Origin: an uncultured archaeon
Lineage (GTDB): Archaea > Aenigmatarchaeota > Aenigmatarchaeia > QMZP01
Direction of reading: 5' to 3'
Length of the DNA: 64,000 bases
NCBI GenBank assembly: GCA_964607835.1
Contig: CAZSLL010000005.1
Coordinates: 4,785-68,784 of the forward strand
Shown: positions 6,168 to 61,450 of the stretch, piece by piece
How the letters are laid out: each line of letters begins with the position of its first letter
Numbering within the stretch: the first letter of the stretch is position 1
The notes under the pieces: generated by a model
Database searches by the model: none
What the model was told of the DNA's origin: nothing
Seen by the model: the letters and a program-made list of their open reading frames with translations, nothing else
Made by a program: the position numbers and the translations under genes

Positions 6168-7112
6168 TTATTTGTTTGCAGAGAGCATTAAACTGCCTTC
6201 CCTGACAGCGTCCGAGTATTTCTTCAGGGCGGCATCGAAACTATCCCCCATCTCCAGGTATGACCTGATGCTCTCCACGCGCTCTACATAGTCATTGCAC
6301 TCTTTCTCATGCTTGCCCTTTCCGTTGGGTCCGGCGAAATAGCACTTGAGGGCCTCTTCCATGTCACCATCCTCATGAACCTCATAGTGCTTGAGAAGGG
6401 CCATGCCAGTCACAATGTTTGCGTAGGGGGATTCCCTCACCCTTTCCCAGACCTCCTCAGGGCCTCCCCCGAAGATATGGGCATACTTCTCAAGGGCATA
6501 CTCTCCTATTTCCTTTCTGGAATCATTGAATCTCTTTCCTTTGCCTGAGAAGAGCTCTCTCGTCTCGGCGCTTGAGACCTGGTTGAGCTGCATGTATCCG
6601 ACATTCCCTGTAATGGATTCAGCATCATGGTCTCCCCATGATTCCTTTCCTATCATTGCAAGAACGAGTTCAGGGTCGAGATTGAAATCACCTGCCACCT
6701 CATTCACGATACTCACGAAACCAGGTTCATCAGGTACGGTTGCAGCGCTCCTATAAGGCTCCGGCCCCGACCCCAGGTCTTCAGAGCTGAAGCCGGTCCT
6801 GGGGTTTATCATTGTTGGTTCAGGCACTAGGTCAGGGGCAGAGGCCGCCTTGGAAGGGTCAAAAGGAGGAGGCTCGTTCTCCTTCCAGGTTCCCTTTTGG
6901 CTCTCTTCCAGGAAATCCCTGTCCCTTTCATCGGCTTTACCTGGATGAGGCTGCCCAACATTCTCATAAGGATAATACATTGCATCAGCATCGTGGTCTC
7001 TCGGGATGCCAAAGAGGGCTGCAAGGCTCATGAATCCAGCAGCAGCTATCTCCACAGCGTATCTGGACACGAAGCCCCTTCCTTCACCAATCCCGGAGGT
7101 TTCTCTAGACAT
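6168..7112 (-). CDS. SLT-domain (lytic transglycosylase-like) protein with a low-complexity Pro/Glu-rich N-terminal region
   Basis: The C-terminal half contains the SLT motifs LVLAMIGKESWGD (catalytic Glu-Ser), GYMQLNQVSSAE and PYANIVTGMALLKHY...YFAGPNG. Confidence 0.5.
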   Translation of the reverse strand: MSRETSGIGEGRGFVSRYAVEIAAAGFMSLAALFGIPRDHDADAMYYPYENVGQPHPGKADERDRDFLEESQKGTWKENEPPPFDPSKAASAPDLVPEPTMINPRTGFSSEDLGSGPEPYRSAATVPDEPGFVSIVNEVAGDFNLDPELVLAMIGKESWGDHDAESITGNVGYMQLNQVSSAETRELFSGKGKRFNDSRKEIGEYALEKYAHIFGGGPEEVWERVRESPYANIVTGMALLKHYEVHEDGDMEEALKCYFAGPNGKGKHEKECNDYVERVESIRSYLEMGDSFDAALKKYSDAVREGSLMLSANK

Positions 7113-7965: not shown

Positions 7966-8058
7966 GATACATATTTAAATACCTAGTTAATATGTTATTA
8001 GACCATGGCACCTGTGTGCTGGTTTTTGGCCTGATTCGGATTGGGCCGGAGGATTTAA

Positions 8059-30903: not shown

Positions 30904-31048
30904 GCGGGAGTGTCCGAGCGGTCAAAGGGGCAAGGTTGAGGGCCTTGTGGCTTAGAACCCTTTTACAGGAGCCAAAGCGTCCGCAAAAGCGTTCGCGGAA
31001 AACCCGTAAAGGGGTAAGCAATGCCTTCGCAGGTTCGAATCCTGTCTC
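30904..31048 (+). tRNA. tRNA-Leu(GAG) with an insertion of about 66 nt in the variable arm that carries the conserved core
   Basis: The folded parts are acceptor GCGGGAG/CTCCCGC plus A, a class-II D-arm (GAGCGGTCAAA), anticodon stem CAAGG/CCTTG with loop TTGAGGG, and an intact T-arm GCAGG-TTCGAAT-CCTGT. The insert is AGAACCCTTTTACAGG...CCGCAAAAGCGTTCGCGGAAAACCCG.... Confidence 0.6.
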
Positions 31049-31115
31049 CCGCATTACACCTTTCTTTACAGGAGGTCACGACCTTCCTCAAGAAAGCCGT
31101 GGGAAAGAAATAATA

Positions 31116-45512: not shown

Positions 45513-45681
45513 ACTAACCTATCCTTCGGGTGCCAAGCACCCGCATGCGCTCCGGTGCGATTGAGCCCTTGATAAAAGGCCTATAATATATTAACCGTTA
45601 ACGGTTATTGTCTGTGAAATTATCTCAATAGTTATTTAAATAGGTTTTTAAAGGTAATGCGGCCCTCGCTCCGGAATTCCG

Positions 45682-45884: not shown

Positions 45885-46667
45885 TTATAATTTGCCGGCG
45901 TTCTTTTTAAATTCCTCAGCCTTGGTCTGCAGGAGCTCAGCGGCCCTCTCCACTATGGCAGCGGGCTCCAGGCCTGAAACGCTTTCCACCCTGAAGACGA
46001 ACTTCGATGGATTGGCCCTTACCTTCACGCCCTCGGCCTTCTCGCAGTTGAGGCAAAGGTCACACTTAGCGGGGTCCTTTATGGTCAGCTTGCCCGCCTT
46101 GAGCTCAAGCACATCCCTGGGGCAAAGGGAAACGGCATTCTTAAGGTCAGCGGGCTTGGCGTCCTTGCTCACCTCCACTTCCGGGTAGTACTGATAGGCC
46201 GCGTTGGCTGCCTGCCACTTGGCGTGCTTCCTGCCAGTGCCAATCTCTGCCCTGGCCTCGAACCTGAGCTCCTGGTTGTCCAGCAGCTCTGCGATGGGGA
46301 ACTTGGGGCTCGTGGCCTTTACGTCCTTGTTGGTGGATTTCAGGTCACCTGAGTATACCACCTTTGGGCCCTTGGCGTCCACTGCGAACACCACTTCGCA
46401 GACAGGGCAGCCCTTGCCACCGCATTTGCACTCCTCTTTGGTGCTGAACTTTGAGGGGTCGAACTTGAGGGGCATGAGGCCCAGCCTGTGGGCCAAAACC
46501 TCGTCAAATAGTATGGTGCTGTTCTGGTGGAAATCCACCCATTCCACCGCCATGGTTGGAACCTCTGATATCATTATCCTCCTGAGAGCGTTAGCGAACG
46601 CTGGAGTGGCGCCCTCGAGCACAAAAGTGAGGGTATCTCCCTTCTTGTTAAGCACATTGACCTTCAT
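45885..46667 (-). CDS. rpoD: DNA-directed RNA polymerase subunit D (Rpo3) with a 4Fe-4S-type Cys cluster
   Basis: It has ATPAFANALRRIMISEVP and HRLGLMPL, plus the Cys clusters CKCGGKGCPVCE and CDLCLNC. Confidence 0.8.
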   Translation of the reverse strand: MKVNVLNKKGDTLTFVLEGATPAFANALRRIMISEVPTMAVEWVDFHQNSTILFDEVLAHRLGLMPLKFDPSKFSTKEECKCGGKGCPVCEVVFAVDAKGPKVVYSGDLKSTNKDVKATSPKFPIAELLDNQELRFEARAEIGTGRKHAKWQAANAAYQYYPEVEVSKDAKPADLKNAVSLCPRDVLELKAGKLTIKDPAKCDLCLNCEKAEGVKVRANPSKFVFRVESVSGLEPAAIVERAAELLQTKAEEFKKNAGKL

Positions 46668-46690
46668 GAAATCTTCCTCCCTGGCACCCC

Positions 46691-47095
46691 TCACCTCAGC
46701 CTCACTGCCTTGATGCCGAAATGCCTCTTCATAATATCCTTTATCGCCTTAATATTCTTACCGTTCTTGCCTATCACAGCCACCCTGTCGCTGGCGGGCA
46801 CGGTCATGTTCACGTTCTCGCCCCTGACCTCCACGTTCTTGGCGGTGGGGACCATGCCCTTTATCATCTCAGCGGGCTCCTTGTGGTACGGGAAGAGCCT
46901 TATGCTCTTGCCAAGGGATTTGCTGACCTCCTTTATGTTGGAGCCGTTCCTTCCTATGGCGACCCCCAGCTTGTCAGGCTCCACCAGGAAATAGAGCGTG
47001 TCCTCGACCTCGATGCAGTCCTTTGCATGCACCCTGGTCATCTTCTCGAATGCCGCTATTATCCTGATGGTCTGCGTCTCAAGCTTGACTGGCAT
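46691..47095 (-). CDS. nusA: Archaeal NusA homologue (two KH domains)
   Basis: The two KH motifs are VAIGRNGSNIK and AVIGKNGKNIKAI. It sits next to L30e, as is typical. Confidence 0.75.
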   Translation of the reverse strand: MPVKLETQTIRIIAAFEKMTRVHAKDCIEVEDTLYFLVEPDKLGVAIGRNGSNIKEVSKSLGKSIRLFPYHKEPAEMIKGMVPTAKNVEVRGENVNMTVPASDRVAVIGKNGKNIKAIKDIMKRHFGIKAVRLR

Positions 47096-51799: not shown

Positions 51800-52011
51800 G
51801 CTATATTATTGGATTCCGGAATTAATATGCTTGAAAAAGCCTGGCAACAAGGTTTATCAAGGTTATTAACCAGGAATCCAGCCTACCAGGTATTCTGGAC
51901 AGCCTACTGGGGGCTGGCATCACTGCTTATCATGGCATATATAATGAGCATCTGAACCCAGCAAGAGCAGGGGCTAGAACCAGTTCCATTGCCAGCGGTT
52001 CGGATGGACAG

Positions 52012-52317
52012 CTATGCGACCTCAATCTGGTCCCTAGAGAATCCCAGCTTGACCAGGACCTCAAGGACCTTGTTCCTGTGGTTTCCCTGGAGCTCTATAA
52101 CGTTTCCCTTTAGAGTGCCTCCGCAAGCAAGCCTGTTCTTGAGCTCTTTCAGAATCCGCTTGTTGTCAGAGTCCTTGCCGATTCCCTCGACAACGGTTAT
52201 GTGCTTTCCGTATCTTCTCCTGTCCACCGAGACCCGTATGCTTTCCTTCTCCTTCGCTATGGTCTCGCATGCGCAGAGTTCCTTGGGAAGACCGCATTTT
52301 TCGCAGATTTTATCCAT
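52012..52317 (-). CDS. sui1: Translation initiation factor SUI1/aIF1
   Basis: It has KHITVVEGIG and GGTLKGNVIELQGNHRNKV. Confidence 0.85.
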   Translation of the reverse strand: MDKICEKCGLPKELCACETIAKEKESIRVSVDRRRYGKHITVVEGIGKDSDNKRILKELKNRLACGGTLKGNVIELQGNHRNKVLEVLVKLGFSRDQIEVA

Positions 52318-52537
52318 TAGCCTTCTTTCCCTCCGGATTTACAGACCTCTCCCTCTCGATGGTGAGAATTCTCGCAATGCTTCGCCTGGTGTGCTTTATC
52401 TGTCCGGGAGAAGTCACGGAAGCCCCTATGTTTATCTTTGCCCGCTCCTTCGAGAGCCCGAGCCGTAGCTCGTCAAGCTTCTTCCGGGCGTCCTTGCTGT
52501 CAAGCTTCCTTATGTCCTTTTTCTTCATGGTTGCCAT
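52310..52537 (-). CDS. rpl29: Ribosomal protein uL29
   Basis: It is small and basic, with a KELRxxxxxEL-type uL29 signature, and sits in the conserved position. Confidence 0.75.
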   Translation of the reverse strand: MATMKKKDIRKLDSKDARKKLDELRLGLSKERAKINIGASVTSPGQIKHTRRSIARILTIERERSVNPEGKKANG

Positions 52538-52585
52538 ATGTTCACTTCATAATTGTTTAGAATGATTTAAATTGGTGCCTGGGGC

Positions 52586-53572
52586 TCACTCCTTCTCGGT
52601 TTCCTTTGGAGGCTTATCCTCTTCCTTCTTCTCTGCGGGCTTTTCCCCTGACTCCTCCTTCTTGGGCCCGGGTTTCTTTTCATCGGGCTTATTTTCCGGT
52701 ATCTCTTTCACAGGCCCATCTTTTCCGGCTTCTTTGGGCTTCTCCTCCAACTCCGCTTTCTGCGCGGGGGCTGATGACTCCTCCGCTTTCTTTACGGGTT
52801 TTCCCTCTTTCTTTTCCGAATCCTTTTCTGGCTTCTTCCCGGACTCTTCCTTCTTGGCAGGGGAAGGCTTTTCTGCTCCCTTCTCTGTCTGCTCCCCTCT
52901 CTTCGGGGGAGACTCTGTCTGCTCCCCTCTCTTCGGGGGAGACTCTTTTTCCTTGTCCTCCCCGCTCACGTCAATCCTGTGCTCCACCTTGTCCCTTATC
53001 TCGCCTGTGATGTCCTGGAACTTGCTCATTATCTTGACCTTGACCCCAATCTTTCCCGGCCTGGTCTGGGCCTCCTCGAAGCCTGAGTCCACCAGGGTCC
53101 TGGCTGGCTCGCCGCAGTGCTTGAGATAGCCCTCCTGGAACTTGCCCACCACGCCCTTTCCGCCGCCCAGCTTGCCGGATATCACTATCTGGGCACCTAT
53201 GGCGCCTGAGTTCATGATTCTCTTCATGGTGAGGTTCCCTATTTTCTTGTAGTTGTACCCCTTCTCCAGGGCGGAGGAAATCTGCTTGGCAACTATCCTA
53301 GAGTCGAGGTTGGGGTTCTTTATGACCTTGACGTCCAGCTGGGGGTTGTCCAGGCCAAACCTCAGCTTGATGGCCTCGGTCATGTCATTGATGTTCTTGC
53401 CGCCCTTGCCGATTATCCTTCCGGGCTTGTTAGTGTAAATGAGAATCTTGAGCCCCAGGGGAGTCCTCTGGAGTTCGGTCTTGGAGTAGTCCCCAAGCGG
53501 GAACTTCTTCCTTATGAACTCGTCTATCTGGGCCTCCTTTATTCCCTGGTTGATGAAGAAATCCTTAATCAT
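52586..53572 (-). CDS. rps3: Ribosomal protein uS3 with a long C-terminal repeat extension
   Basis: It has a KH domain (GRIIGKGGKNIND) and the S3 C-domain. The C-terminal 120 aa contain KESPPKRGEQTESPPKRGEQTE and SSAPAQKAE. Confidence 0.85.
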   Translation of the reverse strand: MIKDFFINQGIKEAQIDEFIRKKFPLGDYSKTELQRTPLGLKILIYTNKPGRIIGKGGKNINDMTEAIKLRFGLDNPQLDVKVIKNPNLDSRIVAKQISSALEKGYNYKKIGNLTMKRIMNSGAIGAQIVISGKLGGGKGVVGKFQEGYLKHCGEPARTLVDSGFEEAQTRPGKIGVKVKIMSKFQDITGEIRDKVEHRIDVSGEDKEKESPPKRGEQTESPPKRGEQTEKGAEKPSPAKKEESGKKPEKDSEKKEGKPVKKAEESSAPAQKAELEEKPKEAGKDGPVKEIPENKPDEKKPGPKKEESGEKPAEKKEEDKPPKETEKE

Positions 53573-53952
53573 TATCTCGCCTCCAGAACGACCTGCAGGT
53601 TTGTGACCTTGGCCTGTTCCCTCCTTCTCTTCCATCCCCTTGGTCTGAAGAAGCTGAACCCCCTGTGTGCAGTGGCGTGGATGTGCATGCTCTCTGTGTC
53701 AAGGCCCTGGCCCTCGGCGTTGGCCTCTGCTGACTTGACTATGTCGAGTATGCTCCTGGTGGCATTGGTGTAGTACTTGCCGCCGATGCTCTTCCTCTCA
53801 TCCAGAAGGTCCTGGAGGAAGGCCTTTCCCTTCTCCAGCCTCATGCCGGTGAGGCTCCTGCAGACAGTGACCGAGCTCTTTGGGGATATTCTCAGGCCTC
53901 GCCCGAAGGCCCTCGCGGACTTCTTCCTGTCTGCCTTGTTTGCGTATTCCAT
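53572..53952 (-). CDS. rpl22: Ribosomal protein uL22
   Basis: YANKADRKKSARAFGRGLRISPK...CRSL matches uL22. Confidence 0.8.
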   Translation of the reverse strand: MEYANKADRKKSARAFGRGLRISPKSSVTVCRSLTGMRLEKGKAFLQDLLDERKSIGGKYYTNATRSILDIVKSAEANAEGQGLDTESMHIHATAHRGFSFFRPRGWKRRREQAKVTNLQVVLEAR

Positions 53953-53963
53953 GACTATGCTCC

Positions 53964-54329
53964 TTATATCAGGTCCGGGTCTCCTCCTGATTCCAGGTAC
54001 TGCCTCACGTCCCTGCTGCCCCATGCGCCAGGCCTTGGACCAGGCCTGTGCAAGGAAGGGTTCCTGTTACCGTATATCATGATGACGTTGCCTTTGCCAT
54101 GGGCACCGTAGCTCTGCTCCAGGTCCATCTCTCCCCAATGGGCAGTGCCTTTTTCCATGGCACGCAGCTCAGGGTCAATGTTTGCCGAAAGGCGTCCTTT
54201 CATCAGGAAATCCCTTGTAACCGGAATCTCTGTGTCGGGGATTTCCTGACCAGAAGGCCCGGTATCGCCTATGATTTCAACGTCTCCGTATTTACCGGGC
54301 TTCACGGTCTCTATCCTCGAGTCATCCAT
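53964..54329 (-). CDS. Orphan hypothetical protein inserted between uS19 and uL22
   Basis: 121 aa with coding-like codon usage. I recognise no family. Its position is atypical for this conserved cluster. Confidence 0.4.
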   Translation of the reverse strand: MDDSRIETVKPGKYGDVEIIGDTGPSGQEIPDTEIPVTRDFLMKGRLSANIDPELRAMEKGTAHWGEMDLEQSYGAHGKGNVIMIYGNRNPSLHRPGPRPGAWGSRDVRQYLESGGDPDLI

Positions 54330-54339
54330 GCTTTCACCT

Positions 54340-54723
54340 CTACTTCAGGGGCACGTACTTGCTGGACCTGGTGGCGCCGAATCCAGGCGATGAGTGCTTG
54401 ACCATCTTCCTGGTGGTCACGAACTCCCCAATCCTGTTTCCGAGGTGCTCGGGCCTTATGTCCAGCGTGACGTACTCCTTTCCGTTGTACACCCCCAGCT
54501 TCGCTCCGAGCAGCTGGGGCACTATAACCATCTCCCTGGCGTGGGTCTTCCTGAACTTGTCCGGGTTCTTCTGGACCTTCTCCAGGAGCTTCTTCTCGGT
54601 CTCAGTGAAGCCCCTCTTAAGGCTCCTCCTCTCCCTGGAGCCGCAGAGCTTGGCGAACTCCTCGACCGGCATTCCCTTGAGCTGGTCCAGGCCAACTCCC
54701 CTGAAAGTGAATTCCCTTGCCAT
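54340..54723 (-). CDS. rps19: Ribosomal protein uS19
   Basis: It has MAREFTFRG...RSLKRGF and LGEFV.TR. Confidence 0.85.
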   Translation of the reverse strand: MAREFTFRGVGLDQLKGMPVEEFAKLCGSRERRSLKRGFTETEKKLLEKVQKNPDKFRKTHAREMVIVPQLLGAKLGVYNGKEYVTLDIRPEHLGNRIGEFVTTRKMVKHSSPGFGATRSSKYVPLK

Positions 54724-54796
54724 GTTAATCCTTTCCTTCCGCTTCCAGCCAACCCCGGTTCCCTGGGAACCGGCAGGCAATCGGAAGCGGCATGCT

Positions 54797-55213
54797 TTAG
54801 ACTCTCCTTCCCCTCCTGCCCCCGGCCTTCCTGGTGGTGTCGTGGGGTATTGGGGTCACGTCCTCAATCTTTCCAATCCTGAGGCCTCCCCTTACCAGGG
54901 CCCTTATGGCGGGCTGGGCACCCTGGCCTGGCATCCTTTTCTTGTGGCCTCCCGGGGCGCGTATCCTGAGGTGGATTCCCATGATTCCCTTGTTCAGGGC
55001 GTCACTGGCCGCCTTCTTGGCAGCAATCATGGCAGGGAACGGGGAGCCCTTGTCCTTGTCCCTGTTGGTGACCATGCCCCCGCTGAACTTGGATATGGTC
55101 TCGGCTCCTGTGAGGTCTGTGATGTGGATGACCGTGTTGTTCTCTGAGGAATATATATGGGCTACTCCCCACCTTCTCCTGGGCTGCTGGGCCTGCTCTT
55201 CCATGTCATCCAC
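54797..55213 (-). CDS. rps11: Ribosomal protein uS11
   Basis: It has [23 protein letters not shown]. Confidence 0.85.
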
Positions 55214-55661
55214 CCCTTATCCTTATCTTTCCCTCTTCCTCGCTCTCCACGAGGTAGGAGGGGAACTTCACCCTCCTGTCATCAATCATGACGTTTCCGT
55301 GTGTTACCATCTGCCTGGCGTGCAGAGGGGTCTGGGCCAGCCTCATCTTGGAAACCACTGTCTGGAGCCTCCTGTCCAGTATGCTTGTTATCTGAAGGGC
55401 GAGCACGTCATCGAGCTCTGCCTGCTTGCTGAGCATCCCCAGCTTCACGAGCCTGTCGAGCAGGGTCTTCTGCTTTTCAGGGTCCTCTGCAGAGATGAGC
55501 TCCCTGGCCCTTCGCCTGAACTGCCTCAGTATCTCCTGTGCCCTCCAGAATTCCCTCTTGCTCCTGAGGCCGTAGTTGCGCATGAGGTTCTTCTCCTCTT
55601 CTATCCTGATGGAGTCGTAGGGCTTCTTGGGCCGCTTGAACTTCTTCCTGATGGTCCTCAT
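55206..55661 (-). CDS. rps4: Ribosomal protein uS4
   Basis: Full-length family similarity ([11 protein letters not shown]...). Confidence 0.85.
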
Positions 55662-55665
55662 GCTA

Positions 55666-56133
55666 TCACTTGCCTCCCTTCTTCCTGCTCACGCCCACGG
55701 TCTTGCCCCTCCTGAAGGCGCCCCTGGTCCTCTGGCCCCTCACCGGAAGGTGCTGGATGTGCCTGACACCCCGGTAGGTCTTGTTCTTCTTCATCCTGTC
55801 AATATCCATCTTCTGTGTGAAGTCGAGGTTGGACACAGAAAAGTGGGAGGTCCTCCCGGTAACGGGGTCGAGCCTCCTGTTAAACATCCACTCAGGGATG
55901 CTGTGCTTGTGGGGATTGAGAATTATCTCCTCGAGTTGCTTGAGCTCGGCTTCGGTCAGGTCAGCGAGCTTCTTGTCGCCAAAGCCCGATATCTTGCATA
56001 TGGCGTTGGAGAACATGAACGACACGCCCTTCACGCTTCTTATGGCTGTCTTCACGGGCTTGCTTCCGTCGATGTTGGTCTCTGCAAGCCTGATAATCTG
56101 CTGCGTGGGTTTGCGTGTCCTGTCCTCGGCCAT
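55666..56133 (-). CDS. rps13: Ribosomal protein uS13
   Basis: It has IRLAETNIDGSKPV, GVRHIQHLPVRGQRT and the rest of the uS13 signature. Confidence 0.85.
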   Translation of the reverse strand: MAEDRTRKPTQQIIRLAETNIDGSKPVKTAIRSVKGVSFMFSNAICKISGFGDKKLADLTEAELKQLEEIILNPHKHSIPEWMFNRRLDPVTGRTSHFSVSNLDFTQKMDIDRMKKNKTYRGVRHIQHLPVRGQRTRGAFRRGKTVGVSRKKGGK

Positions 56134-56268
56134 GGTAAGCTCCCTCCGGCTCTTGCGTGCCGGGAGCGGTATAGCGTCAATAGACGCCTGCAATGATGGC
56201 AAAACCGCTGCCATCAAAAAGCCATGTCATTAGTATGAGGTAAGGTATTTAAATGTGTTGGGAAGGTT

Positions 56269-57135
56269 TTATTGCAGAATATGGCTGAGCTTTATTGCAT
56301 CAGGATTTTTCCTGAGCTTCCTTTTGGCCTTCTCAATCTTCTGCCTAACAGCCTCGCCGCTATCCAGGTATTTCTCGGCAATTTCCCTGGGCCTAAGCTT
56401 ATTGAACACATTCTCCTCGAAATATACCCTCTCCCATGTGTCCAGTGACGAGAGTATATTATCGCAGAGCCCCGCCATCTGCTCTTTCGCCGCCTCATCT
56501 TCTGGCAGGCTGTCTACTGAAGGCACAAAGTCTATAAGCGAAGCATCGCTTTCAGGAAAAGAGGCATCAAGGCTAAGGTAGTATGGATGGCCCGCATTGT
56601 TGCGCATCAGCTCAAGCTCATAAAGGCTGAATGTGGCGTCAATCTCTCTCTGGATTTCCTCTGCATTCTCAGGGATTCTCTGCATATCCTCGAGCATACC
56701 CAGATACCTGCGAATCCTTTTCTGGAGAATTGGCCCGATCCTGTATGCCCCCCTGTTGTCTGTGATATAGCTGAATATTTTAAATCTTATCCAAGAGGTA
56801 AGATATGTGCTCGGCATTAAGCCCCTTTCGGGCTCGTATTTCTCCAGGCCCCTCAGAAGCCCCATGTTTCCCTCCTGAACGAGATCCATTAACGGGAACC
56901 CGGGCCCAGAATACATTCCTGCAACCTGCCTGACCATCCTCTGGCATCCCTCGACAAGCTCTTCCCTGGCTTTGCTGGCAGACTCTTTGTCACCGTTTTT
57001 CATGGCAAAGTGAACCGAATCAAAGGCTTGCTTGTCAAAATAGAGCCTTCCCGAGAAATCTGCCTCCTTGCTGTAATGATACTCAGTGTCATCGGTATGG
57101 AAAGGCCCTGTATAGGGCTTGCTTCTCTGTTTCAT
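56269..57135 (-). CDS. Sigma-70-family RNA polymerase sigma factor-like protein (regions 2, 3 and 4)
   Basis: Region 2 is MDLVQEGNMGLLRGLEKYEPERGLMPSTYLTSWIRFKI (compare DLIQEGNIGLMKAV.KF...STYATWWIR). A region-3-like segment is SLDASFPESDASLIDFV. Region 4.2 is ...KLRPREIAEKYLDSGEAVRQKIEKAKRKLRK. It lies directly upstream of, and co-directional with, S13-S4-S11. Confidence 0.7.
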   Translation of the reverse strand: MKQRSKPYTGPFHTDDTEYHYSKEADFSGRLYFDKQAFDSVHFAMKNGDKESASKAREELVEGCQRMVRQVAGMYSGPGFPLMDLVQEGNMGLLRGLEKYEPERGLMPSTYLTSWIRFKIFSYITDNRGAYRIGPILQKRIRRYLGMLEDMQRIPENAEEIQREIDATFSLYELELMRNNAGHPYYLSLDASFPESDASLIDFVPSVDSLPEDEAAKEQMAGLCDNILSSLDTWERVYFEENVFNKLRPREIAEKYLDSGEAVRQKIEKAKRKLRKNPDAIKLSHILQ

Positions 57136-57192
57136 CTTCTGTCTGGTTCTTTTCGGAAATATTTAAAGCCTTGCTCAGTCAGTGTATATGCC

Positions 57193-57795
57193 ATGGAAAC
57201 GAGGATGGCGCTGGTGAGGCACGGAGACGCGGGCTATCCCTGGGGGACCCTGGTTGGGTCCACTGACGCTGAGCTGGCTGAGGGGGCCCTGGAGAAGGCG
57301 GGTAAGGTCGGGAAGAGGCTTAAGGCAGAGGGCCTGTCTGCCCTTTATTCGAGCGCCCTGAAGAGGGCCTGGAAGACAGCAGAGGCCATCGGAAAGGAAA
57401 CCGGACTGGAAAATGAAAGGATAAGGGAGCTCAACGAGATAAGCTTCGGCAGGCTGGAGGGCAAGTTCAAGGGCAAAATCATGGAGACCTGGCCCACCTT
57501 CGAGGAGGAGTTCAGGAAGGACCCCTGGGGGTTCAGGTTCCCTGGGGGCGAGACCTTTACCGAGGTGAGGGAGAGGACACTGCCAGTAGTGGAGGAGCTC
57601 TTCAGGAGACACGAGGGCAAGGCATTCTGCGTGGTGGCCCATGGTGACGTCAACCTCATACTGTTATCCGCACTGACCGGGATGCCCGTAATGGAGGCCA
57701 TGGACAGGGGGCTTCCCAACCTGGCCACCCTGTTCTTTAAAAAGAATAGGGACAAGATTGCACTGGAGAAGAGCTGGGGGATTCAGTATGAGTGA
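57193..57795 (+). CDS. Histidine-phosphatase superfamily protein (phosphoglycerate-mutase-like)
   Basis: It has LVRHGDAG (the RHG motif) and a downstream His (VVAHGDVN). Confidence 0.6.
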   Translation: METRMALVRHGDAGYPWGTLVGSTDAELAEGALEKAGKVGKRLKAEGLSALYSSALKRAWKTAEAIGKETGLENERIRELNEISFGRLEGKFKGKIMETWPTFEEEFRKDPWGFRFPGGETFTEVRERTLPVVEELFRRHEGKAFCVVAHGDVNLILLSALTGMPVMEAMDRGLPNLATLFFKKNRDKIALEKSWGIQYE

Positions 57796-58195
57796 TTACG
57801 AGAAACTTCTGGAAAGGGGGCTGAAAAAGGTCCCGGACAAGCAGAAGGCGGCCGACAGGTTCGTCATGCCCACCTCAAGAATCCAGAAGTCAGGGAGCAG
57901 GAGCATTATCACGAATTTCCAGGAGATAGCGGGGGCGCTGAGGAGGGAGCCGAAGCACCTCATGAAGTTCCTCCTCAAGGAACTGGCCACCTCAGGAGAG
58001 CTCAAAGGCCCTGCACTGGAGGTCCAGGGAGGGTTCAGCGCTGATATAGTGAACAAGAAGCTGGACAAGTACGTGGTCAGCTACGTGCGGTGCCCGGAGT
58101 GCGGTAAGCACGACACCAACCTGGTCAAGGAGAAAGGCACCTTGCTCATAAAGTGCGAGGTGTGCGGGGCCAGGGAGCCTGTGAGCAAGGTTTAG
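57788..58195 (+). CDS. eif2b: Translation initiation factor aIF-2 beta subunit
   Basis: It has a C-terminal C4 zinc ribbon (CPECGKHD...CEVCGA) and an eIF2-beta core. Confidence 0.8.
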   Translation: MSDYEKLLERGLKKVPDKQKAADRFVMPTSRIQKSGSRSIITNFQEIAGALRREPKHLMKFLLKELATSGELKGPALEVQGGFSADIVNKKLDKYVVSYVRCPECGKHDTNLVKEKGTLLIKCEVCGAREPVSKV

Positions 58196-58249
58196 CCTGC
58201 AAGGTTATTAACGCATAGAGCGATTCTTTTTATCAGGGAGATGTTTCAC

Positions 58250-58666
58250 ATGAGCAGGAAGTACAGGTTCATAGACGATTTGACGTCTGACGTCATGTTC
58301 GAGGCCAAAGGGAAGGACCTGAAGGAGGTATTCGAGAACGCTGCAGAGGCCATGTTCACGGTAATATGCCAGCTGGAGAAGGTGGGGCAGAAGGAGAGCA
58401 GGGAGGTCGAGGTCACGGGCAGGGACCAGGCTGACCTGCTGTTCAACTGGCTCCAGGAGCTAATCGCCCTTGTGGACATCGAGGGCATGTTCTTTTCCGG
58501 GTTCGAGGTGAAGGAAATCGGGCCCAGAAAGCTGAAGGCAACGGTGAGGGGGGAGCCCGTGACGCCTGAGAAAGGGGAGACCGTGGTCAAGGCACTCACC
58601 TACTACGGGTTCTCGCTCAGGGAGAACAAGGAAGGGTTTGTTGCCAGGGTGAGCCTGGACATATAA
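58250..58666 (+). CDS. Archease (RtcB activator)
   Basis: It has YRFIDDLTSDVMFEAKGKDLKEVFENAAEAM, and it is adjacent to rtcB. Confidence 0.8.
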   Translation: MSRKYRFIDDLTSDVMFEAKGKDLKEVFENAAEAMFTVICQLEKVGQKESREVEVTGRDQADLLFNWLQELIALVDIEGMFFSGFEVKEIGPRKLKATVRGEPVTPEKGETVVKALTYYGFSLRENKEGFVARVSLDI

Positions 58667-58694
58667 CACCATTATATCTTTGCACCGCCAAGAG

Positions 58695-59003
58695 CTACCT
58701 TTTCTCGAGTGAGTTCAGCGCCCGGTACACCTTATTGGAGAAGTTCTCAGGCCTGGGGGTCTGTGCATTGCCCTCGAGTTCGTACATCCTCATGAGCAAG
58801 TCAACCCCGGGCTGGCCCGCCTCTGAGTCAAGGCCGTCCGGGAAGACCTGCAGGTGCCCGCCTGACTCAACCAGGCCCCTCATGAAATCCAGGTCTGCGT
58901 TATAGGCAAACAAGAGATCAGGCCTTCTGATGACTGATATACTGTCCCCGACTGCATCGAACAGCTGTCTGTAGGTGGCCATCTTAGGCAAGGTATTTGT
59001 CAC
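58695..59003 (-). CDS. Hypothetical protein
   Basis: 102-aa ORF. Confidence 0.35.
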   Translation of the reverse strand: MTNTLPKMATYRQLFDAVGDSISVIRRPDLLFAYNADLDFMRGLVESGGHLQVFPDGLDSEAGQPGVDLLMRMYELEGNAQTPRPENFSNKVYRALNSLEKR

Positions 59004-59214
59004 CGAACATTTATAAACCCAGCATGTATACTATGCATATTGCGTGTGCCCGACGCAACCGGCTGTTTCGGGGAAGCAGTTTCGAACACGGCCGGCGTAT
59101 ACGGGCGCAGGGCAAAGCCTTTCAGGCTCTTGTTCTCGTCTTGTAAATGAGGAAATATAACAGTGTTATATCGGCTTGCAGAGCCGTCACTGTACAGAGA
59201 AGGATGTGATTGAA

Positions 59215-60615
59215 ATGAAGGAGAAGCTGGAGAATGTTAATGATTATGAGTGGCACCTCCCAAAGAGCGCCAGGAACGAGATGAGGGTGGATGCCAGGGT
59301 GTTCATGAACAAGCAGCTCATGGACGCGGCAGAGGACGCTGCTGTGGAGCAGCTCACCAACGTTGCCACCCTTCCCGGGGTCATAAACCCTGTTATAGGC
59401 CTCCCCGACATGCACTGGGGCTACGGCCTTCCCATGGGGGCTGTATCAGCGTTCGATGCCCAGGAGGGAATAATATCAGCAGGGCTCTGCGGATTTGACA
59501 TAAACTGCGGAATCAATCTCATAAGGACCAGCCTCAGGGCTGACGAGATAAGGCCCAGGATAAAGCAGCTCATGTCCGAGCTCTTCAATACCATACCCTG
59601 CGGGGTAGGCACCAAGGGAAAGCTCAGGCTCACCCCTGACCAGCTTGATGAGGTTTTGGTCAAGGGCGTGGACTGGGCAATAGAGAACGGCTACGCCACC
59701 AAGGAAGACAAGGCCACCACAGAGGAGGGCGGCCGTATGGAGGGAGCAGACCCCTCCAAGGTGTCTGACCTTGCCAAGAAGAGGGGAGCCCCCCAGCTGG
59801 GCACCCTGGGAGCAGGAAACCACTTCCTCGAGGTCCAGGAGGTCACTGACGTCTTTGACGAGGGAAACCCCTGGGGAGTGAAGGAGAAGGGGCAGACCCT
59901 CATCATGCTGCACTGCGGCTCCAGGGGGCTTGGCCACCAGGTGGCCACTGACTACCTCAAGATACAGGAGCAGGCAGTCAAAAAGTACAACATATGGCTC
60001 CCAGACCAGCAGCTCTCCTGCGCACCAGCCACATCCCAGGAGGGCCAGGACTTCTTCGCAGCCATGAAGGCCGCGGTGAACTACTCATTCACCAACAGGG
60101 CGGTCATGACCAAATGGATAAGGGAGACGTTCGAGCGGGTGTTCGGCCAGTCATGGAAGGACATGGGTATGCAGAATGTTTACGCCATAGCCCACAATAT
60201 CGTGAAGCTCGAGGAGCACAGGATAGAGGGCAAGACCAGGAAGGTCTACGTGCACAGGAAGGGAGCAACCCGCTCCTTCCCGGGAACCCCTGTCATCATT
60301 GCGGGCTCTATGGGCACCTCATCCTACCTGCTCAAGGGCACGGAAACCGCCATGCAGAAGACCTTCGGCAGCTCTGCCCACGGAGCAGGCAGGTCAATGA
60401 GCAGACACGCCGCAATCAAGAGGTTCTGGGGCGGCAAGGTCAGGGAGGACCTGGCAAAGCAGGGCATAACTGCGCAGAGCACCCACCCCAAGGTCCTGTC
60501 AGAGGAGGCCCCCAAGGCATACAAGGACGTGGAGGCTGTCATCGAGACCGTCCACAATGCAGGCATATCCGAGAAGGTGGCCAGGATGGTTCCAATGGGA
60601 GTGGCGAAGGGTTAA
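59215..60615 (+). CDS. rtcB: tRNA-splicing ligase RtcB
   Basis: Full-length RtcB similarity (GAGNHFLEVQEV, HCGSRGLGHQVATDY, AHNIVKLE). Confidence 0.9.
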   Translation: MKEKLENVNDYEWHLPKSARNEMRVDARVFMNKQLMDAAEDAAVEQLTNVATLPGVINPVIGLPDMHWGYGLPMGAVSAFDAQEGIISAGLCGFDINCGINLIRTSLRADEIRPRIKQLMSELFNTIPCGVGTKGKLRLTPDQLDEVLVKGVDWAIENGYATKEDKATTEEGGRMEGADPSKVSDLAKKRGAPQLGTLGAGNHFLEVQEVTDVFDEGNPWGVKEKGQTLIMLHCGSRGLGHQVATDYLKIQEQAVKKYNIWLPDQQLSCAPATSQEGQDFFAAMKAAVNYSFTNRAVMTKWIRETFERVFGQSWKDMGMQNVYAIAHNIVKLEEHRIEGKTRKVYVHRKGATRSFPGTPVIIAGSMGTSSYLLKGTETAMQKTFGSSAHGAGRSMSRHAAIKRFWGGKVREDLAKQGITAQSTHPKVLSEEAPKAYKDVEAVIETVHNAGISEKVARMVPMGVAKG

Positions 60616-60625
60616 CCCTTAAATA

Positions 60626-61450
60626 GTGGTAACACAACAAGGAAACATGCCAGAGATAAGGAACCTCTTCACTGATTACAACGGGACAATTGACCCCAAG
60701 TACCTGGAGATGCCCCTAGCTTACGCTTTGGCACAACGCCACCATGAACGTGGAGAATTCCTCAGGGAATGCTCCCTCAGGATTCCCGGCCAGTGCCTGA
60801 TATGGTCGAAATATTTTAGAAAGGGCTCTGACGCGGTCCTGCCGTACTATGTCAATAAAGTGCTCAAAGGAGAGACCAGAGATGCCCTTGATGATTCCAT
60901 GAGAAGGGTAATTGATATGGACGGTAACCTTACCAGAGGATTGTTCATAAGGGCCATGAAATGGTGCGCTGGTATGGCAGATACAAAGCTGTCTGAAAAG
61001 ATTGGCGAGAGGATATCCGGCGAGTTTGACCCCGAGGCAGTGGAGGTCTTCGAAAAAGCAAGGGAGAAGGGAATGCCCACCGGCATATACTCCCGCTCCC
61101 TGAGGCCGCTCATCCAGGGCTATCTTAAAGGAACCGGGAAGGACGTGTTGTTCGATACGGTCATGGCCAACGAACTCCTTTACGAGGACGGTGTGGTTGC
61201 GGGCCTTCAGGAGAGGGTTGCATCAGGCAAGCCGGGATTCTCCGATGACCTGGCTGCGGCGGGATTCGATGCCAGGGAAACCGCATACGTGGATGACCGT
61301 GATATGGCCCCGCTTGAGCAGGCTGGCCTGGGCATCCTGGCTCCCGGGGCAAAGGAAGAAACAAGGGAGCGCTGCGAGGGCACAAAAATAAAGATTGTGT
61401 CCAGGTGGGGGGAGGTGGGAGACCTCCTGGGGCTCTGGTCTCCTGACTGA
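60626..61450 (+). CDS. HAD-superfamily-like hydrolase (degenerate motif I DYNGT)
   Basis: It has FTDYNGTID and a C-terminal AYVDDRDMAPLEQAG motif-IV-like segment. Confidence 0.45.
   Translation: MVTQQGNMPEIRNLFTDYNGTIDPKYLEMPLAYALAQRHHERGEFLRECSLRIPGQCLIWSKYFRKGSDAVLPYYVNKVLKGETRDALDDSMRRVIDMDGNLTRGLFIRAMKWCAGMADTKLSEKIGERISGEFDPEAVEVFEKAREKGMPTGIYSRSLRPLIQGYLKGTGKDVLFDTVMANELLYEDGVVAGLQERVASGKPGFSDDLAAAGFDARETAYVDDRDMAPLEQAGLGILAPGAKEETRERCEGTKIKIVSRWGEVGDLLGLWSPD

What the first reader, a model, noticed from the sequence alone, without database searches (positions are those of the whole stretch)
56269..57135. Complete sigma-70-family sigma factor directly upstream of the archaeal S13-S4-S11 ribosomal operon
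Every informational gene I can recognise in this window is archaeal. Archaea initiate transcription with TBP and TFB and are not known to use sigma factors. This 288-aa protein nevertheless has sigma-70 regions 2.1-2.4 (DLVQEGNMGLLRGLEKYEPERG...STYLTSWIRFKI), a region-3-like segment, and region 4.2 (EIAEKYLDSGEAVRQKIEKAKRKLR). It sits co-directionally 50 bp upstream of uS13. It could be a horizontally acquired regulator, a viral or anti-host factor, an anti-sigma decoy, or a sign of chimeric assembly.
Basis: partly seen in the sequence, partly recalled or inferred. Interest (0 to 1): 0.85.

Follow-up and report, generated by a model that had tools for sequence, protein, structure and literature searches.

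The report
Bacterial-type sigma factor gene in archaeon
A small symbiotic-type (DPANN) archaeon carries an intact, very divergent bacterial-style sigma factor gene that dropped as a single gene into the promoter gap between two archaeal operons; it is real and not an assembly error, but such genes have already been reported in these archaea and nobody knows what they do there.

Summary
Window 56269-57135 (-) encodes a 288-aa sigma-70-family protein: Pfam Sigma70_r2 scores 58.6 bits (cut-off 24) and TIGR02937 scores 82.8 (cut-off 42.9). It aligns over residues 39-283 to SigA/RpoD structures, and the model shows confident sigma2 and sigma4 folds.

The host is a DPANN archaeon; its nearest named relatives are Aenigmatarchaeota.

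Chimerism is excluded. Two separately assembled Logan contigs (SRR7048225) cross both junctions at 100% identity. A related genome (L222) has the same gene order but with uS13 and the His-phosphatase gene as direct neighbours, 220 bp apart. The window's flanks align to that empty site, so the insert is about 873 bp, essentially the ORF alone.

The gene has atypical composition (GC3 0.58 against 0.71-0.86). No relative exceeds about 36% identity among 5.8 billion protein clusters, and all relatives I could place are bacterial or phage.

The ORF sits 28 nt downstream of the host's consensus TATA box (TTTAAATA), which it shares with the divergent phosphatase operon.

The core-binding helix 2.2 and part of the 4.2 helix-turn-helix are kept. 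Half of the -10 melting and recognition residues are lost.

Sigma-70 genes in DPANN were already reported (Castelle 2021), so this is a new orphan member of a known but unexplained kind. Its function is not demonstrated.

The parts
56269..57135 (-). Sigma-70-family ORF, 288 aa, ATG to TAA.
   Evidence: The ORF is listed. Pfam Sigma70_r2 scores 58.6 bits and TIGR02937 scores 82.8 bits. PDB SigA/RpoD alignments cover residues 39-283. Foldseek top hits are all sigma factors at probability 1.0.
56971..57045 (-). Residues 31-55, a partial region-1.2-like helix pair. Residues 1-30 have no homology and low pLDDT.
   Evidence: The phmmer alignment starts at residue 39 against SigA region 1.2. The AF2 model has helices at 35-46 and 50-63. 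Only 2 of 5 consensus positions are kept.
56746..56970 (-). Residues 56-130, the sigma2 domain (regions 2.1-2.4). The core-binding helix 2.2 (DLVQEGNMGLLRGLEKY) is conserved. The melting and -10 recognition residues are partly lost.
   Evidence: Pfam r2 covers residues 60-128 and pLDDT is 83-92. Region 2.2 keeps 71% of consensus positions, against a bacterial mean of 80%. In E. coli sigma70 numbering (offset +319, from my reading of the alignments): D403, Q406, E407, N409, Y430, W434 and R436 are kept; Y425 is L, F427 is P, W433 is S, Q437 is F, T440 is F and R441 is S.
56593..56745 (-). Residues 131-181, a region 3.0-3.1-like three-helix segment.
   Evidence: The AF2 model has helices at 135-150, 158-165 and 171-181 with pLDDT 59-77. 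RpoD_Cterm and SigA alignments span this segment. There is no Pfam Sigma70_r3 hit, and 35% of consensus positions are kept.
56500..56592 (-). Residues 182-212, the region 3.2 linker or 'finger' (acidic, disordered when free).
   Evidence: pLDDT is 41-49. 82% of consensus positions are kept, including S188, L189, D202 and P211.
56302..56499 (-). Residues 213-278, the sigma4 domain (regions 4.1-4.2) with the helix-turn-helix EIAEKYLDSGEAVRQKIEKAKRKLR.
   Evidence: pLDDT is 88-95. phrog_1740 matches residues 207-278. Pfam r4 is sub-threshold at 13.4 bits. E261, R264 and Q265 are kept; the consensus R260 is G and E267 is I.
57160..57167 (-). Host-consensus archaeal TATA box TTTAAATA. Its centre is 28.5 nt upstream of the sigma ATG and about 29.5 nt upstream of the divergent His-phosphatase ATG (57193, + strand). 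I infer a shared bidirectional promoter giving leaderless or near-leaderless mRNAs.
   Evidence: The sequence is shown. The motif occurs 11 times in the window against 0.48 expected, with 0 of 100 shuffles reaching 11. Positions relative to gene starts are and BRE contexts. The homologous box in the empty-site relative reads TTATAATA.
56270..57142 (.). Approximate extent of the inserted DNA relative to the empty site in relative L222: the ORF plus 7 nt or fewer of 5' leader, about 873 bp.
   Evidence: blastn homology from the uS13 side ends at 56262. In the global alignment of the empty site against the joined flanks, the junction falls between L222 'GACCAG' and 'GGAAACCACCCC'.
56246..56253 (-). 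The uS13-operon TATA box TTTAAATA, between the sigma stop codon and the uS13 start. It is conserved in the relative's empty site, so the ribosomal operon keeps its own promoter.
55666..56133 (-). uS13, the first gene of the uS13-uS4-uS11-uS19-uL22-uS3 operon (context on the downstream flank).
   Evidence: Pfam Ribosomal_S13 scores 107.8 bits. It is 69% identical to L222 uS13.
57193..57795 (+). Histidine-phosphatase gene, divergent from sigma and overlapping the aIF2-beta start (context on the upstream flank).
   Evidence: Pfam His_Phos_1 scores 141 bits. An exact 200-aa product is called in the Logan contig. The same His_Phos-aIF2beta pair occurs in L220, L221 and L222.

Best explanation
This is a genuine, intact sigma-70-family gene with a group 1/2-like architecture: partial 1.2, then sigma2, sigma3, the 3.2 linker and sigma4. 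A DPANN archaeon, most likely an Aenigmatarchaeota relative, acquired it horizontally.

SHOWN: It entered as a single ORF-sized piece of about 873 bp. It landed in the 220-bp divergent promoter gap between the uS13 ribosomal operon and the His-phosphatase/aIF2-beta operon, exactly between their two back-to-back TATA boxes.

INFERRED: Its ATG lies 28 nt downstream of a box that reads as the host's consensus TTTAAATA on the sigma strand. The archaeal TBP/TFB machinery therefore probably transcribes it as a leaderless mRNA from a promoter shared with the phosphatase operon.

SHOWN by sequence and model: The protein keeps the helix that in bacteria docks onto the RNA polymerase clamp coiled-coil (region 2.2). 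It also keeps the 3.2 linker and a well-folded sigma4 helix-turn-helix. It has lost W433, Y425, F427, Q437 and T440, which primary sigma factors use to melt and read the -10 element.

INFERRED, about 35-40% likely: The cell has no bacterial core enzyme, so the protein does not act as a canonical initiation factor. If it does anything, it acts as an accessory transcription regulator. It would bind specific DNA through sigma4 and sigma2, and it might touch the homologous clamp coiled-coil of archaeal Rpo1.

The identity, origin and insertion history are about 90% certain. The function is not demonstrated.
For: - Family membership is shown.
- The host is archaeal. The flanks are uS13/uS4/uS11 and aIF2-beta/archease/RtcB. 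The window also holds EF-1alpha, eS6, an NFACT-family protein, an archaeal-type histone-fold protein and a UbiA prenyltransferase and an intron-containing tRNA. The nearest named EF-1alpha and RtcB relatives are Aenigmatarchaeota.
- It is not a chimera. Logan contigs L218 (window 56403-59275) and L219 (53299-56430) are 100% identical to the window, and each spans one junction between sigma and archaeal genes.
- There is an empty site. L222 has the identical order ...uS3-uL22-uS19-uS11-uS4-uS13 | His_Phos-aIF2beta-...-RtcB-UbiA with no sigma gene and a 220-bp gap. The flanks align across the junction.
- The gene is lineage-specific. None of 70 uS13 loci from DPANN relatives or of L220-L223 has a sigma-like sequence. 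The protein is alone in its cluster among 5.8e9 clusters and 1.84e9 representatives.
- Its composition is foreign. GC is 0.488 and GC3 is 0.581, against 0.71-0.86 for neighbours, and its codon score is second lowest of 31 genes.
- The relatives I could place are bacterial or phage, all at about 36% identity or less.
- Conservation is patchy rather than uniformly decayed. 39 of 51 strongly conserved positions are kept, against a bacterial mean of 88% and a 5th percentile of 69%.
- There is precedent for sigma-70 genes in DPANN (PMC8204110).
Against: - There is no orthologue, so purifying selection in the archaeon cannot be measured.
- The acquisition looks recent, because the composition has not ameliorated. 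Intactness may therefore only reflect the donor's selection.
- Pfam r3 and r4 do not reach threshold.
- Key melting and -10 recognition residues are lost.
- The BRE on the sigma side (gagcaaggc) matches the host's A-rich BRE less well than the phosphatase side does. There are no expression data.
- Only one empty-site relative was found, at 80% RtcB and 69% uS13 identity, so the boundaries are good to a few nucleotides at best.
- The Logan contigs come from a run that may be the same reads as the MAG. They are an independent assembly, not an independent sample. They also break inside the gene, with a 28-bp overlap at 56403-56430.
- No archaeal RNA polymerase large subunit is in the window, so the clamp interface could not be examined.
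Confidence: 0.75

Rival explanations
1. Neutral passenger. The gene is a recent horizontal arrival that happens to be intact and next to a TATA box. It has no function in the archaeon and will decay.
For: - The composition has not ameliorated.
- The gene is an orphan with no orthologue in any relative.
- It has lost several residues essential for canonical sigma function.
- There is no bacterial core polymerase or anti-sigma partner nearby.
- The same genome shows other ORF-sized, compositionally atypical insertions. One is the HAD-like gene at 60626-61450, absent between RtcB and UbiA in five relatives. These genomes also show gene-sized indels at this locus, so such arrivals seem frequent.
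Against: - The ORF is fully open.
- All three domains are predicted to fold.
- Conservation is patchy rather than uniformly eroded, and lies within the bacterial range.
- The shared TATA box reads as the exact host consensus on the sigma strand, whereas the relative's homologous box does not.
- A related class of genes is maintained across many Woesearchaeota (PMC8204110), which argues that sigma-like proteins can be useful in DPANN cells.
Confidence: 0.4
2. Relic or cargo of a DPANN virus or other mobile element. The sigma-like gene comes from a fast-evolving viral pool, which would explain why it is so divergent. It serves, or served, viral take-over or defence.
For: - Divergent rpoS-like genes have been reported in DPANN viruses and a DPANN prophage (PMC12647753).
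- The phage profile phrog_351 gives the best single profile score, 100 bits.
- The extreme divergence and lower GC are typical of virus-derived genes.
- There is a weak match to the sigma domain of the defence protein MzaA.
Against: - There is no integrase, capsid or any other viral or mobile gene nearby, and there are no att-like or terminal repeats.
- The insert is the ORF alone.
- IMG/VR, GenBank phage and BFVD matches are no closer than cellular ones. They reach at most 36% sequence identity, and Foldseek gives E=1.6e-7 for BFVD against 5.8e-10 for PDB sigma factors.
- The MzaA match covers only the generic sigma domain (80 bits against a cut-off of 800), and no Mza partners are present.
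Confidence: 0.12
3. Assembly or binning artefact: a bacterial fragment was wrongly joined into archaeal DNA.
For: The gene's GC is lower than that of its flanks. The Logan assembly breaks inside the gene at 56403-56430.
Against: - Both junctions lie inside separately assembled contigs at 100% identity, and those contigs overlap in frame within a domain that is predicted with high confidence.
- An artefact would need two precise joins within intergenic spacers of 57 nt (sigma ATG to the His-phosphatase ATG) and 135 nt (sigma stop to the uS13 ATG).
- The flanks align colinearly to a relative's empty site.
- The ORF sits at canonical distance from a host-type TATA box.
Confidence: 0.02
4. Inter-domain effector. 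The archaeon interacts with bacteria and uses the sigma factor on a bacterial partner's RNA polymerase.
For: The bacterial core-binding helix 2.2 is well conserved. The same window carries a second, compositionally atypical bacterial-type gene with an SLT lytic transglycosylase domain, which would act on bacterial cell wall.
Against: There is no signal peptide or secretion-associated feature on the protein; the N-terminus is hydrophilic. I found no report of a DPANN archaeon with a bacterial host in the literature searches. -10 recognition residues are lost. The idea is pure inference.
Confidence: 0.03

Closest known systems
Sigma-70-class genes in DPANN archaea (protein family fam00359 of Castelle et al. 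2021, Front Microbiol, PMC8204110)
   Same: This is a bacterial-type sigma-70 family gene encoded on a contig whose other genes are archaeal (DPANN). There is no anti-sigma partner, archaeal TBP/TFB-type promoters surround it, and the function is unknown.
   Different: Those genes are described as prevalent and shared, especially in Woesearchaeota. This one is in an Aenigmatarchaeota-like genome and is a singleton, with no relative above about 36% identity in any archaeal or bacterial data searched. Here the insertion event itself is resolved by an empty site.
Bacterial group 1/2 sigma factors (RpoD/SigA, RpoS)
   Same: These give the best profile and structure matches. The domain order is the same: 1.2 (partial), then 2, 3, 3.2 and 4. 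Region 2.2 and parts of 4.2 are conserved.
   Different: Scores are far below the equivalog cut-offs: RpoS 83.6 against 394, and RpoD_Cterm 80.5 against 354. There is no region 1.1. W433, Y425, F427, Q437, T440 and R441 are replaced. The gene is encoded in a cell that should have no bacterial core enzyme.
Phage-encoded sigma factors (phrog_351) and the rpoS-like genes of DPANN viruses (PMC12647753)
   Same: These are divergent sigma-70 family proteins outside bacterial chromosomes. The phrog_351 profile scores 100 bits.
   Different: There is no viral context at this locus. Viral sequences and structures are no closer than cellular ones.
Archaeal TFB/TFE general factors (functional analogues of sigma)
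   Same: These carry out the same job in the host. TFB provides promoter recognition and a reader or finger in the active-site cleft. TFE binds the clamp coiled-coil and aids melting. This is established knowledge and was not tested here.
   Different: There is no sequence or fold relationship. The protein matches sigma factors only.

Membership tests
Sigma-70 family (Pfam Sigma70_r2 / NCBIfam TIGR02937 superfamily) | A region 2 domain scoring above the curated threshold. | tested here: met
   PF04542 scores 58.6 bits against a gathering score of 24, covering residues 60-128 and profile positions 1-69 of 71.
Sigma-70 family (Pfam Sigma70_r2 / NCBIfam TIGR02937 superfamily) | A whole-protein match spanning region 2 to region 4, above the curated cut-off. 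| tested here: met
   TIGR02937 scores 82.8 bits against 42.9, covering residues 56-276 and profile positions 2-163 of 165.
Sigma-70 family (Pfam Sigma70_r2 / NCBIfam TIGR02937 superfamily) | A region 4.2 helix-turn-helix domain. | tested here: met
   PDB SigA alignments run through 4.2 to residues 276-283. AF2 pLDDT is 88-95 for residues 211-288. phrog_1740 matches residues 207-278. Caveat: Pfam r4 alone is sub-threshold, at 13.4 against 24.1 bits.
Sigma-70 family (Pfam Sigma70_r2 / NCBIfam TIGR02937 superfamily) | A region 3 domain (present in groups 1-3). | tested here: inconclusive
   There is no Pfam Sigma70_r3 hit. Full-length alignments do span it. AF2 gives three helices at pLDDT 59-77. 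35% of consensus positions are kept, which is the 6th percentile of homologues.
Sigma-70 family (Pfam Sigma70_r2 / NCBIfam TIGR02937 superfamily) | The overall fold matches solved sigma factors. | tested here: met
   The top 50 Foldseek hits against PDB are all sigma factors at probability 1.00, with a best E of 5.8e-10. TM scores are low because the domain arrangement differs between the free and holoenzyme-bound forms.
Functional primary-type sigma factor (promoter melting and -10 recognition) | The conserved aromatic and recognition residues of regions 2.3-2.4 (E. coli Y425, Y430, W433, W434, Q437, T440). | tested here: not met
   Only Y430 and W434 are kept. Y425 is L, W433 is S, Q437 is F and T440 is F. 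This comes from my mapping of the alignments; one search shows F108 as P, A112 as L and R122 as S among the positions conserved at 80% or more.
Functional sigma factor | Binds bacterial RNAP core (beta-prime clamp helices) and directs promoter-specific initiation. | not testable with these tools
   Region 2.2 residues D403, Q406, E407 and N409 are conserved, but no binding or transcription assay is possible. No bacterial core subunit genes are in the window.
RpoS / RpoD / RpoH equivalogs (NCBIfam) | A score above the equivalog cut-off. | tested here: not met
   RpoS scores 83.6 against 394, RpoD_Cterm 80.5 against 354, and RpoH 68.2 against 323.
MzaA (sigma-like component of the MZA anti-phage system) | A full-length match above the cut-off, with the partner Mza genes adjacent. 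| tested here: not met
   NCBIfam MzaA scores 80.2 against a cut-off of 800, matching the sigma domain only. PADLOC MzaA scores 52.9 bits over residues 54-145. The neighbours are ribosomal and translation genes.
DPANN sigma-70 family fam00359 (Castelle 2021) | Sequence clustering with that family's members. | not tested
   The family's sequences and distribution are not in the supplementary text held. No archaeal-context homologue appeared among the relatives I examined.

The most novel reading that the evidence does not exclude
The sigma-like protein is functional in the archaeon. It docks through its conserved region 2.2 onto the clamp coiled-coil of archaeal Rpo1, which is the site used by TFE and Spt5. 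Using its sigma4 and sigma2 DNA-binding surfaces, it redirects or modulates TBP/TFB-dependent initiation at a specific set of promoters. That would be a hybrid bacterial/archaeal mode of transcription control.
Probability: 0.08. Interest if true: 0.9.

Novelty: new member of a known kind. Interest (0 to 1): 0.5.

Why it matters
Archaea initiate transcription with TBP, TFB and TFE. Why some DPANN genomes carry bacterial sigma genes has been an open question since they were reported in 2021. This locus is an unusually clean case:
- It is a single ORF whose insertion is resolved by an empty site in a relative.
- The ORF sits at canonical distance from a host-type TATA box.
- The protein keeps the polymerase-docking helix and the helix-turn-helix but has lost the -10 melting residues.

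That makes it a compact, synthesisable test article. One could ask whether a sigma domain can bind archaeal RNA polymerase or act as a plain DNA-binding regulator. The locus also documents how foreign genes become wired into archaeal promoters. If the gene is only a transient passenger, it still shows how often promoter-proximal, gene-sized insertions occur in these reduced genomes.

Tried and rejected
1. I looked for the source genome and for syntenic sigma genes among 185,579 GTDB species representatives. The genome is not there, and all 80 best loci are bacterial at 36% identity or less.
2. The best hit of the exhaustive HMMER search, P0088 (122 bits), looked like a closer relative. It is an enterobacterial RpoS gene model with region 2 duplicated, so the score is inflated by matching twice. 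I rejected it.
3. An exact look-up of the sigma protein's contig returned nothing on record. The route through the neighbouring genes worked instead.
4. The 70 uS13-anchored metagenome loci have no sigma gene, but their synteny upstream of uS13 is not conserved (uS13 identity 64% or less). They gave no empty site.
5. I checked three distant homologues for archaeal context. Two (P0015, P0022) sit in clearly bacterial contexts, and the third (P0036) is ambiguous and not evidently archaeal.
6. For viral origin I searched IMG/VR, GenBank phages, PHROGs and BFVD. Sigma hits appear, but none is closer than the cellular ones.
7. For a defence-system reading, MzaA matches only the generic sigma domain.
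8. I looked for terminal repeats, target-site duplication or a cassette signature around the insert, and compared it with the HAD-like insert. Nothing turned up beyond the TATA motif itself.
9. The sigma-70-type promoter scan around the gene gave 1 site against 1.3 expected, which is uninformative.
10. The supplementary files of PMC8204110 contain no text for fam00359.
11. The last contig look-up (L224) begins at RtcB and was uninformative for the junction.
Full report
**1. Observation**

- Pfam finds Sigma70_r2 at 58.6 bits (gathering score 24, E=5e-16, residues 60-128).
- Pfam finds only a sub-threshold Sigma70_r4 (13.4 against 24.1 bits) and no Sigma70_r3.
- NCBIfam's superfamily model TIGR02937 matches residues 56-276 end to end at 82.8 bits (cut-off 42.9).
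- The best specific NCBIfam models are RpoS, RpoD and RpoH, all far below their equivalog cut-offs.
- phmmer against PDB aligns residues 39-283 to primary sigma factors (7l7b_F, 1.5e-21), running through region 4.2.

The structure model supports the same reading.
- An AlphaFold2 model built from 25 sequences has mean pLDDT 74.
- sigma2 is at 83-92, sigma4 at 88-95 and sigma3 at 59-77.
- The 3.2 linker is below 50, as expected for a free sigma factor.
- All of the top 50 Foldseek PDB hits are sigma factors at probability 1.00.

- There is no region 1.1.
- Region 1.2 is partial.
- Regions 3 and 4 are divergent.

**2. Host and context**

Both flanks are archaeal.
- Downstream on the same strand lie uS13, uS4, uS11, uS19, uL22 and uS3.
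- Upstream and divergent lie a His_Phos_1 phosphatase that overlaps aIF2-beta, then archease and RtcB.
- Elsewhere the window encodes EF-1alpha, eS6, an NFACT-family protein, a histone-fold protein, an RPA-like protein, Rad50/SMC-like and UbiA proteins. It also has a 150-nt intron-containing tRNA seen by Rfam but not by ARAGORN.
- EF-1alpha and RtcB have unnamed relatives at 80-90% identity. The nearest relatives named by NCBI, at 70-79%, are mostly 'Candidatus Aenigmatarchaeota', with a few labelled Nanoarchaeota or Woesearchaeota.
- The host is therefore a DPANN archaeon, probably an Aenigmatarchaeota relative.

**3. Not a chimera**

A separate Logan assembly of run SRR7048225 contains the flanking genes.
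- Contig L218 equals window 56403-59275: the sigma N-terminal 244 codons, His_Phos, aIF2-beta, archease and the first ~100 bp of RtcB (starts 59176).
- Contig L219 equals window 53299-56430: the sigma C-terminal 53 codons, then uS13 through uL22.
- Both are 100% identical to the window.

Each junction between sigma and archaeal DNA is thus internal to a separately assembled contig. The two contigs overlap by 28 bp, in frame, inside the confidently modelled sigma4 domain. The caveat is that this may be the same read set as the MAG.

**4. Empty site**

The RtcB-anchored look-ups gave L222, a JGI contig of 32.9 kb. Its amino-acid identities to the window are RtcB 80%, uS11 86%, uS3 81% and uS13 69%.
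- It has the same, unusual gene order as the window: ...SUI1-uL29-uS3-uL22-uS19-uS11-uS4-uS13 on one strand, then His_Phos-aIF2beta-(one extra gene)-archease-RtcB-UbiA on the other.
- In L222, uS13 and His_Phos are immediate divergent neighbours 220 bp apart, and no sigma gene is present.
- Nucleotide homology from the uS13 side runs through the uS13 leader and TATA box. It stops at window 56262, which is 7 bp from the sigma stop codon.
- With the ORF removed, the window's two flanks align colinearly with L222's intergenic region.
- The insertion point falls between the two back-to-back TATA boxes, which are only about 25 bp apart in L222.
- The inserted DNA is about 873 bp (roughly 56270-57142): the ORF plus at most 7 nt of leader.
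- No terminal repeats or duplication beyond the TATA motif were found.

Two other relatives (L220 and L221, RtcB 82%) have FtsZ upstream of His_Phos and also lack sigma. None of 70 uS13-anchored DPANN loci contains a sigma-like sequence.

**5. Origin**

The protein is an orphan.
- Among 5.8 billion 90%-identity clusters it matches only itself; the next hits are at 36% identity or less.
- An exhaustive HMMER scan of 1.84 billion representatives gives the same picture. Its top hit is an artefact: an RpoS gene model with region 2 duplicated.
- The 80 best loci among GTDB representatives are all bacterial and span many phyla, so no donor clade stands out.
- Of three homologues I examined in context, two sit in clearly bacterial settings and the third is ambiguous.
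- Viral sequences and structures are no closer, although the phage profile phrog_351 gives the best single profile score, 100 bits.

The gene is also compositionally foreign.
- Its GC is 0.488 and its GC3 is 0.581, against 0.71-0.86 for its neighbours.
- Its codon-preference score is second lowest of 31 genes.

Taken with the empty site, this is a lineage-specific and probably fairly recent horizontal acquisition from an unsampled bacterial or mobile-element source.

**6. Expression signals**

TTTAAATA occurs 11 times in the window against 0.48 expected. It lies upstream of EF-1alpha, ribosomal operons and other genes, so it is the host's TATA consensus.
- One copy (57160-57167) is centred 28.5 nt upstream of the sigma ATG and 29.5 nt upstream of the divergent His_Phos ATG (57193).
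- I infer a shared, quasi-palindromic bidirectional promoter giving leaderless transcripts.
- In L222 the homologous box reads TTATAATA on this strand. In the window it is the exact consensus.
- The sigma-side BRE (gagcaaggc) is only a partial match to the host's A-rich BRE, and the phosphatase side is better.
- A second TTTAAATA (56246-56253) lies between the sigma stop and uS13 and is conserved in L222, so the ribosomal operon retains its own promoter.
- Expression of the sigma gene is an inference, not a demonstration.

**7. State of the protein**

I aligned the protein with 204 bacterial homologues.
- It keeps 39 of 51 positions that are at least 80% conserved (76%). The homologues average 88%, with a 5th percentile of 69%.
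- Conservation is patchy. Region 2.2 (71%), region 3.2 (82%) and region 4.1 (71%) are normal. Regions 2.1, 3.0-3.1 and 1.2 are at the low end.

In E. coli sigma70 numbering (my mapping from the alignments, offset +319):
- The core-binding residues D403, Q406, E407 and N409 are present, as are Y430, W434 and R436.
- Y425 is L, F427 is P, W433 is S, Q437 is F, T440 is F and R441 is S.
- In region 4.2, E585, R588 and Q589 are kept, while R584 is G and R586 is A.

The protein therefore looks like a folded, recently functional sigma-family protein. It is unlikely to recognise or melt a canonical -10 element.

**8. Mechanism**

Shown: the gene's identity, its archaeal context, the single-ORF insertion between two TATA boxes, its foreign composition and its orphan status.

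Inferred:
- The archaeal machinery transcribes it from the shared TATA box.
- The product is not a canonical initiation factor, because the cell should lack a bacterial core enzyme.
- If it is functional, it acts as an accessory regulator through its helix-turn-helix and sigma2 DNA-binding surfaces. It might contact the homologous clamp coiled-coil of Rpo1.

I put about 35-40% on such a regulatory role and about 40% on a neutral passenger. About 12% goes to a viral or mobile-element origin or role; that concerns origin and partly overlaps the first two. A few percent or less goes to each of the other readings.

**9. Comparison with what is known**

- Castelle et al. 2021 (PMC8204110) reported sigma-70-class genes (fam00359) in DPANN genomes, especially Woesearchaeota. 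They excluded mis-binning, noted the absence of anti-sigma factors and left the mechanism open.
- A 2025 study reported two divergent rpoS-like genes in DPANN viruses, one of them in a prophage (PMC12647753).
- I found no functional study.

The present gene is therefore a new, orphan member of a known but unexplained kind. What is new here is the resolved insertion event, the promoter arrangement and the residue-level anatomy.

**10. Verdict**

The finding is real and correctly identified, and the artefact explanation is refuted. Its novelty is moderate, because the phenomenon has been published. Its value is as a clean test case for what a sigma domain can do in an archaeal cell.

Noticed in passing
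window 6168-7112 (-): A 314-aa protein carries a bacterial-type SLT lytic transglycosylase domain (37.6 bits against a gathering score of 21.3). The gene has the most atypical codon usage of 31 genes (GC3 0.559) and its own TTTAAATA 32.5 nt upstream of the ATG. It is a second probably horizontally acquired bacterial-type gene: a murein-cleaving enzyme in an archaeon.
   Followed up: partly
window 60626-61450 (+): A HAD-like hydrolase gene lies between RtcB and UbiA. It has atypical composition (GC3 0.625, third-lowest codon score). In five related loci (L220-L224) RtcB is followed directly by UbiA, 30-60 bp away, so this is another ORF-sized, lineage-specific insertion. It has a TATA-like CTTAAATA about 27 nt before its likely ATG.
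   Followed up: partly
window 52000-56217 (-); L222 4039-7578: The ribosomal gene order is unusual. uS13-uS4-uS11 is followed directly by uS19-uL22-uS3-uL29-SUI1, and Rpo3/RpoD lies about 8 kb further on (45885-46694). More than 40 other DPANN loci have the canonical uS13-uS4-uS11-RpoD order. The rearranged order is shared with relative L222, so it marks this sub-lineage.
   Followed up: partly
window 30904-31053 (+): A 150-nt tRNA match from Rfam (39.8 bits) is not called by ARAGORN. It is presumably an intron-containing archaeal tRNA.
   Followed up: no
window 52586-53635 (-): uS3 carries a C-terminal extension of about 140 aa that is rich in K, E and P. It includes a tandem 'ESPPKRGEQTE' repeat. 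The L222 orthologue is shorter, at 294 aa.
   Followed up: no
window 7972-7981 and 45633-45642: Overlapping TTTAAATA matches on both strands form the palindrome TATTTAAATA. These look like dedicated bidirectional TATA boxes, which supports the idea that this genome uses shared divergent promoters.
   Followed up: partly
window 56403-56430: The Logan assembly of SRR7048225 breaks inside the sigma gene, and its two contigs overlap by 28 bp. This is probably an ordinary de Bruijn branch, since contigs for this genome are about 3 kb. It could also mark strain variation within the gene.
   Followed up: no
window 56216-56222 (-) compared with L222 7690-7700: The uS13 leader has a T5 run (GGCTTTTTGATGG) where the relative has only TTT (GTCTTTGTGATGG). 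This could be an oligo-T terminator for sigma transcripts just downstream of the uS13 TATA box. This is speculative.
   Followed up: no
L222 8818-9327; L220 8753-9724: Relatives carry extra unannotated genes within the aIF2beta-archease-RtcB block: a 169-aa gene in L222 and a 323-aa gene in L220 and L221. The window lacks them. This neighbourhood is a hot spot for single-gene gains and losses.
   Followed up: no
L081 and L082, 10001-11305: Two enterobacterial assemblies (GCA_000155105.1, GCA_000759775.1) encode a 434-aa RpoS with an internal duplication of regions 1.2-2. Several other top 'hits' (P0089-P0094) show similar duplicated region 2. Such duplications inflate homology scores.
   Followed up: partly
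L154 7303-8897 and 11967-13561: A bacterial contig carries two copies of a split sigma arrangement, in inverted orientation. Each has a separate 188-aa Sigma70_r1_2 ORF followed by an r2-r3-r4 ORF, next to an AP_endonuc_2 gene and histidine kinases.
   Followed up: no
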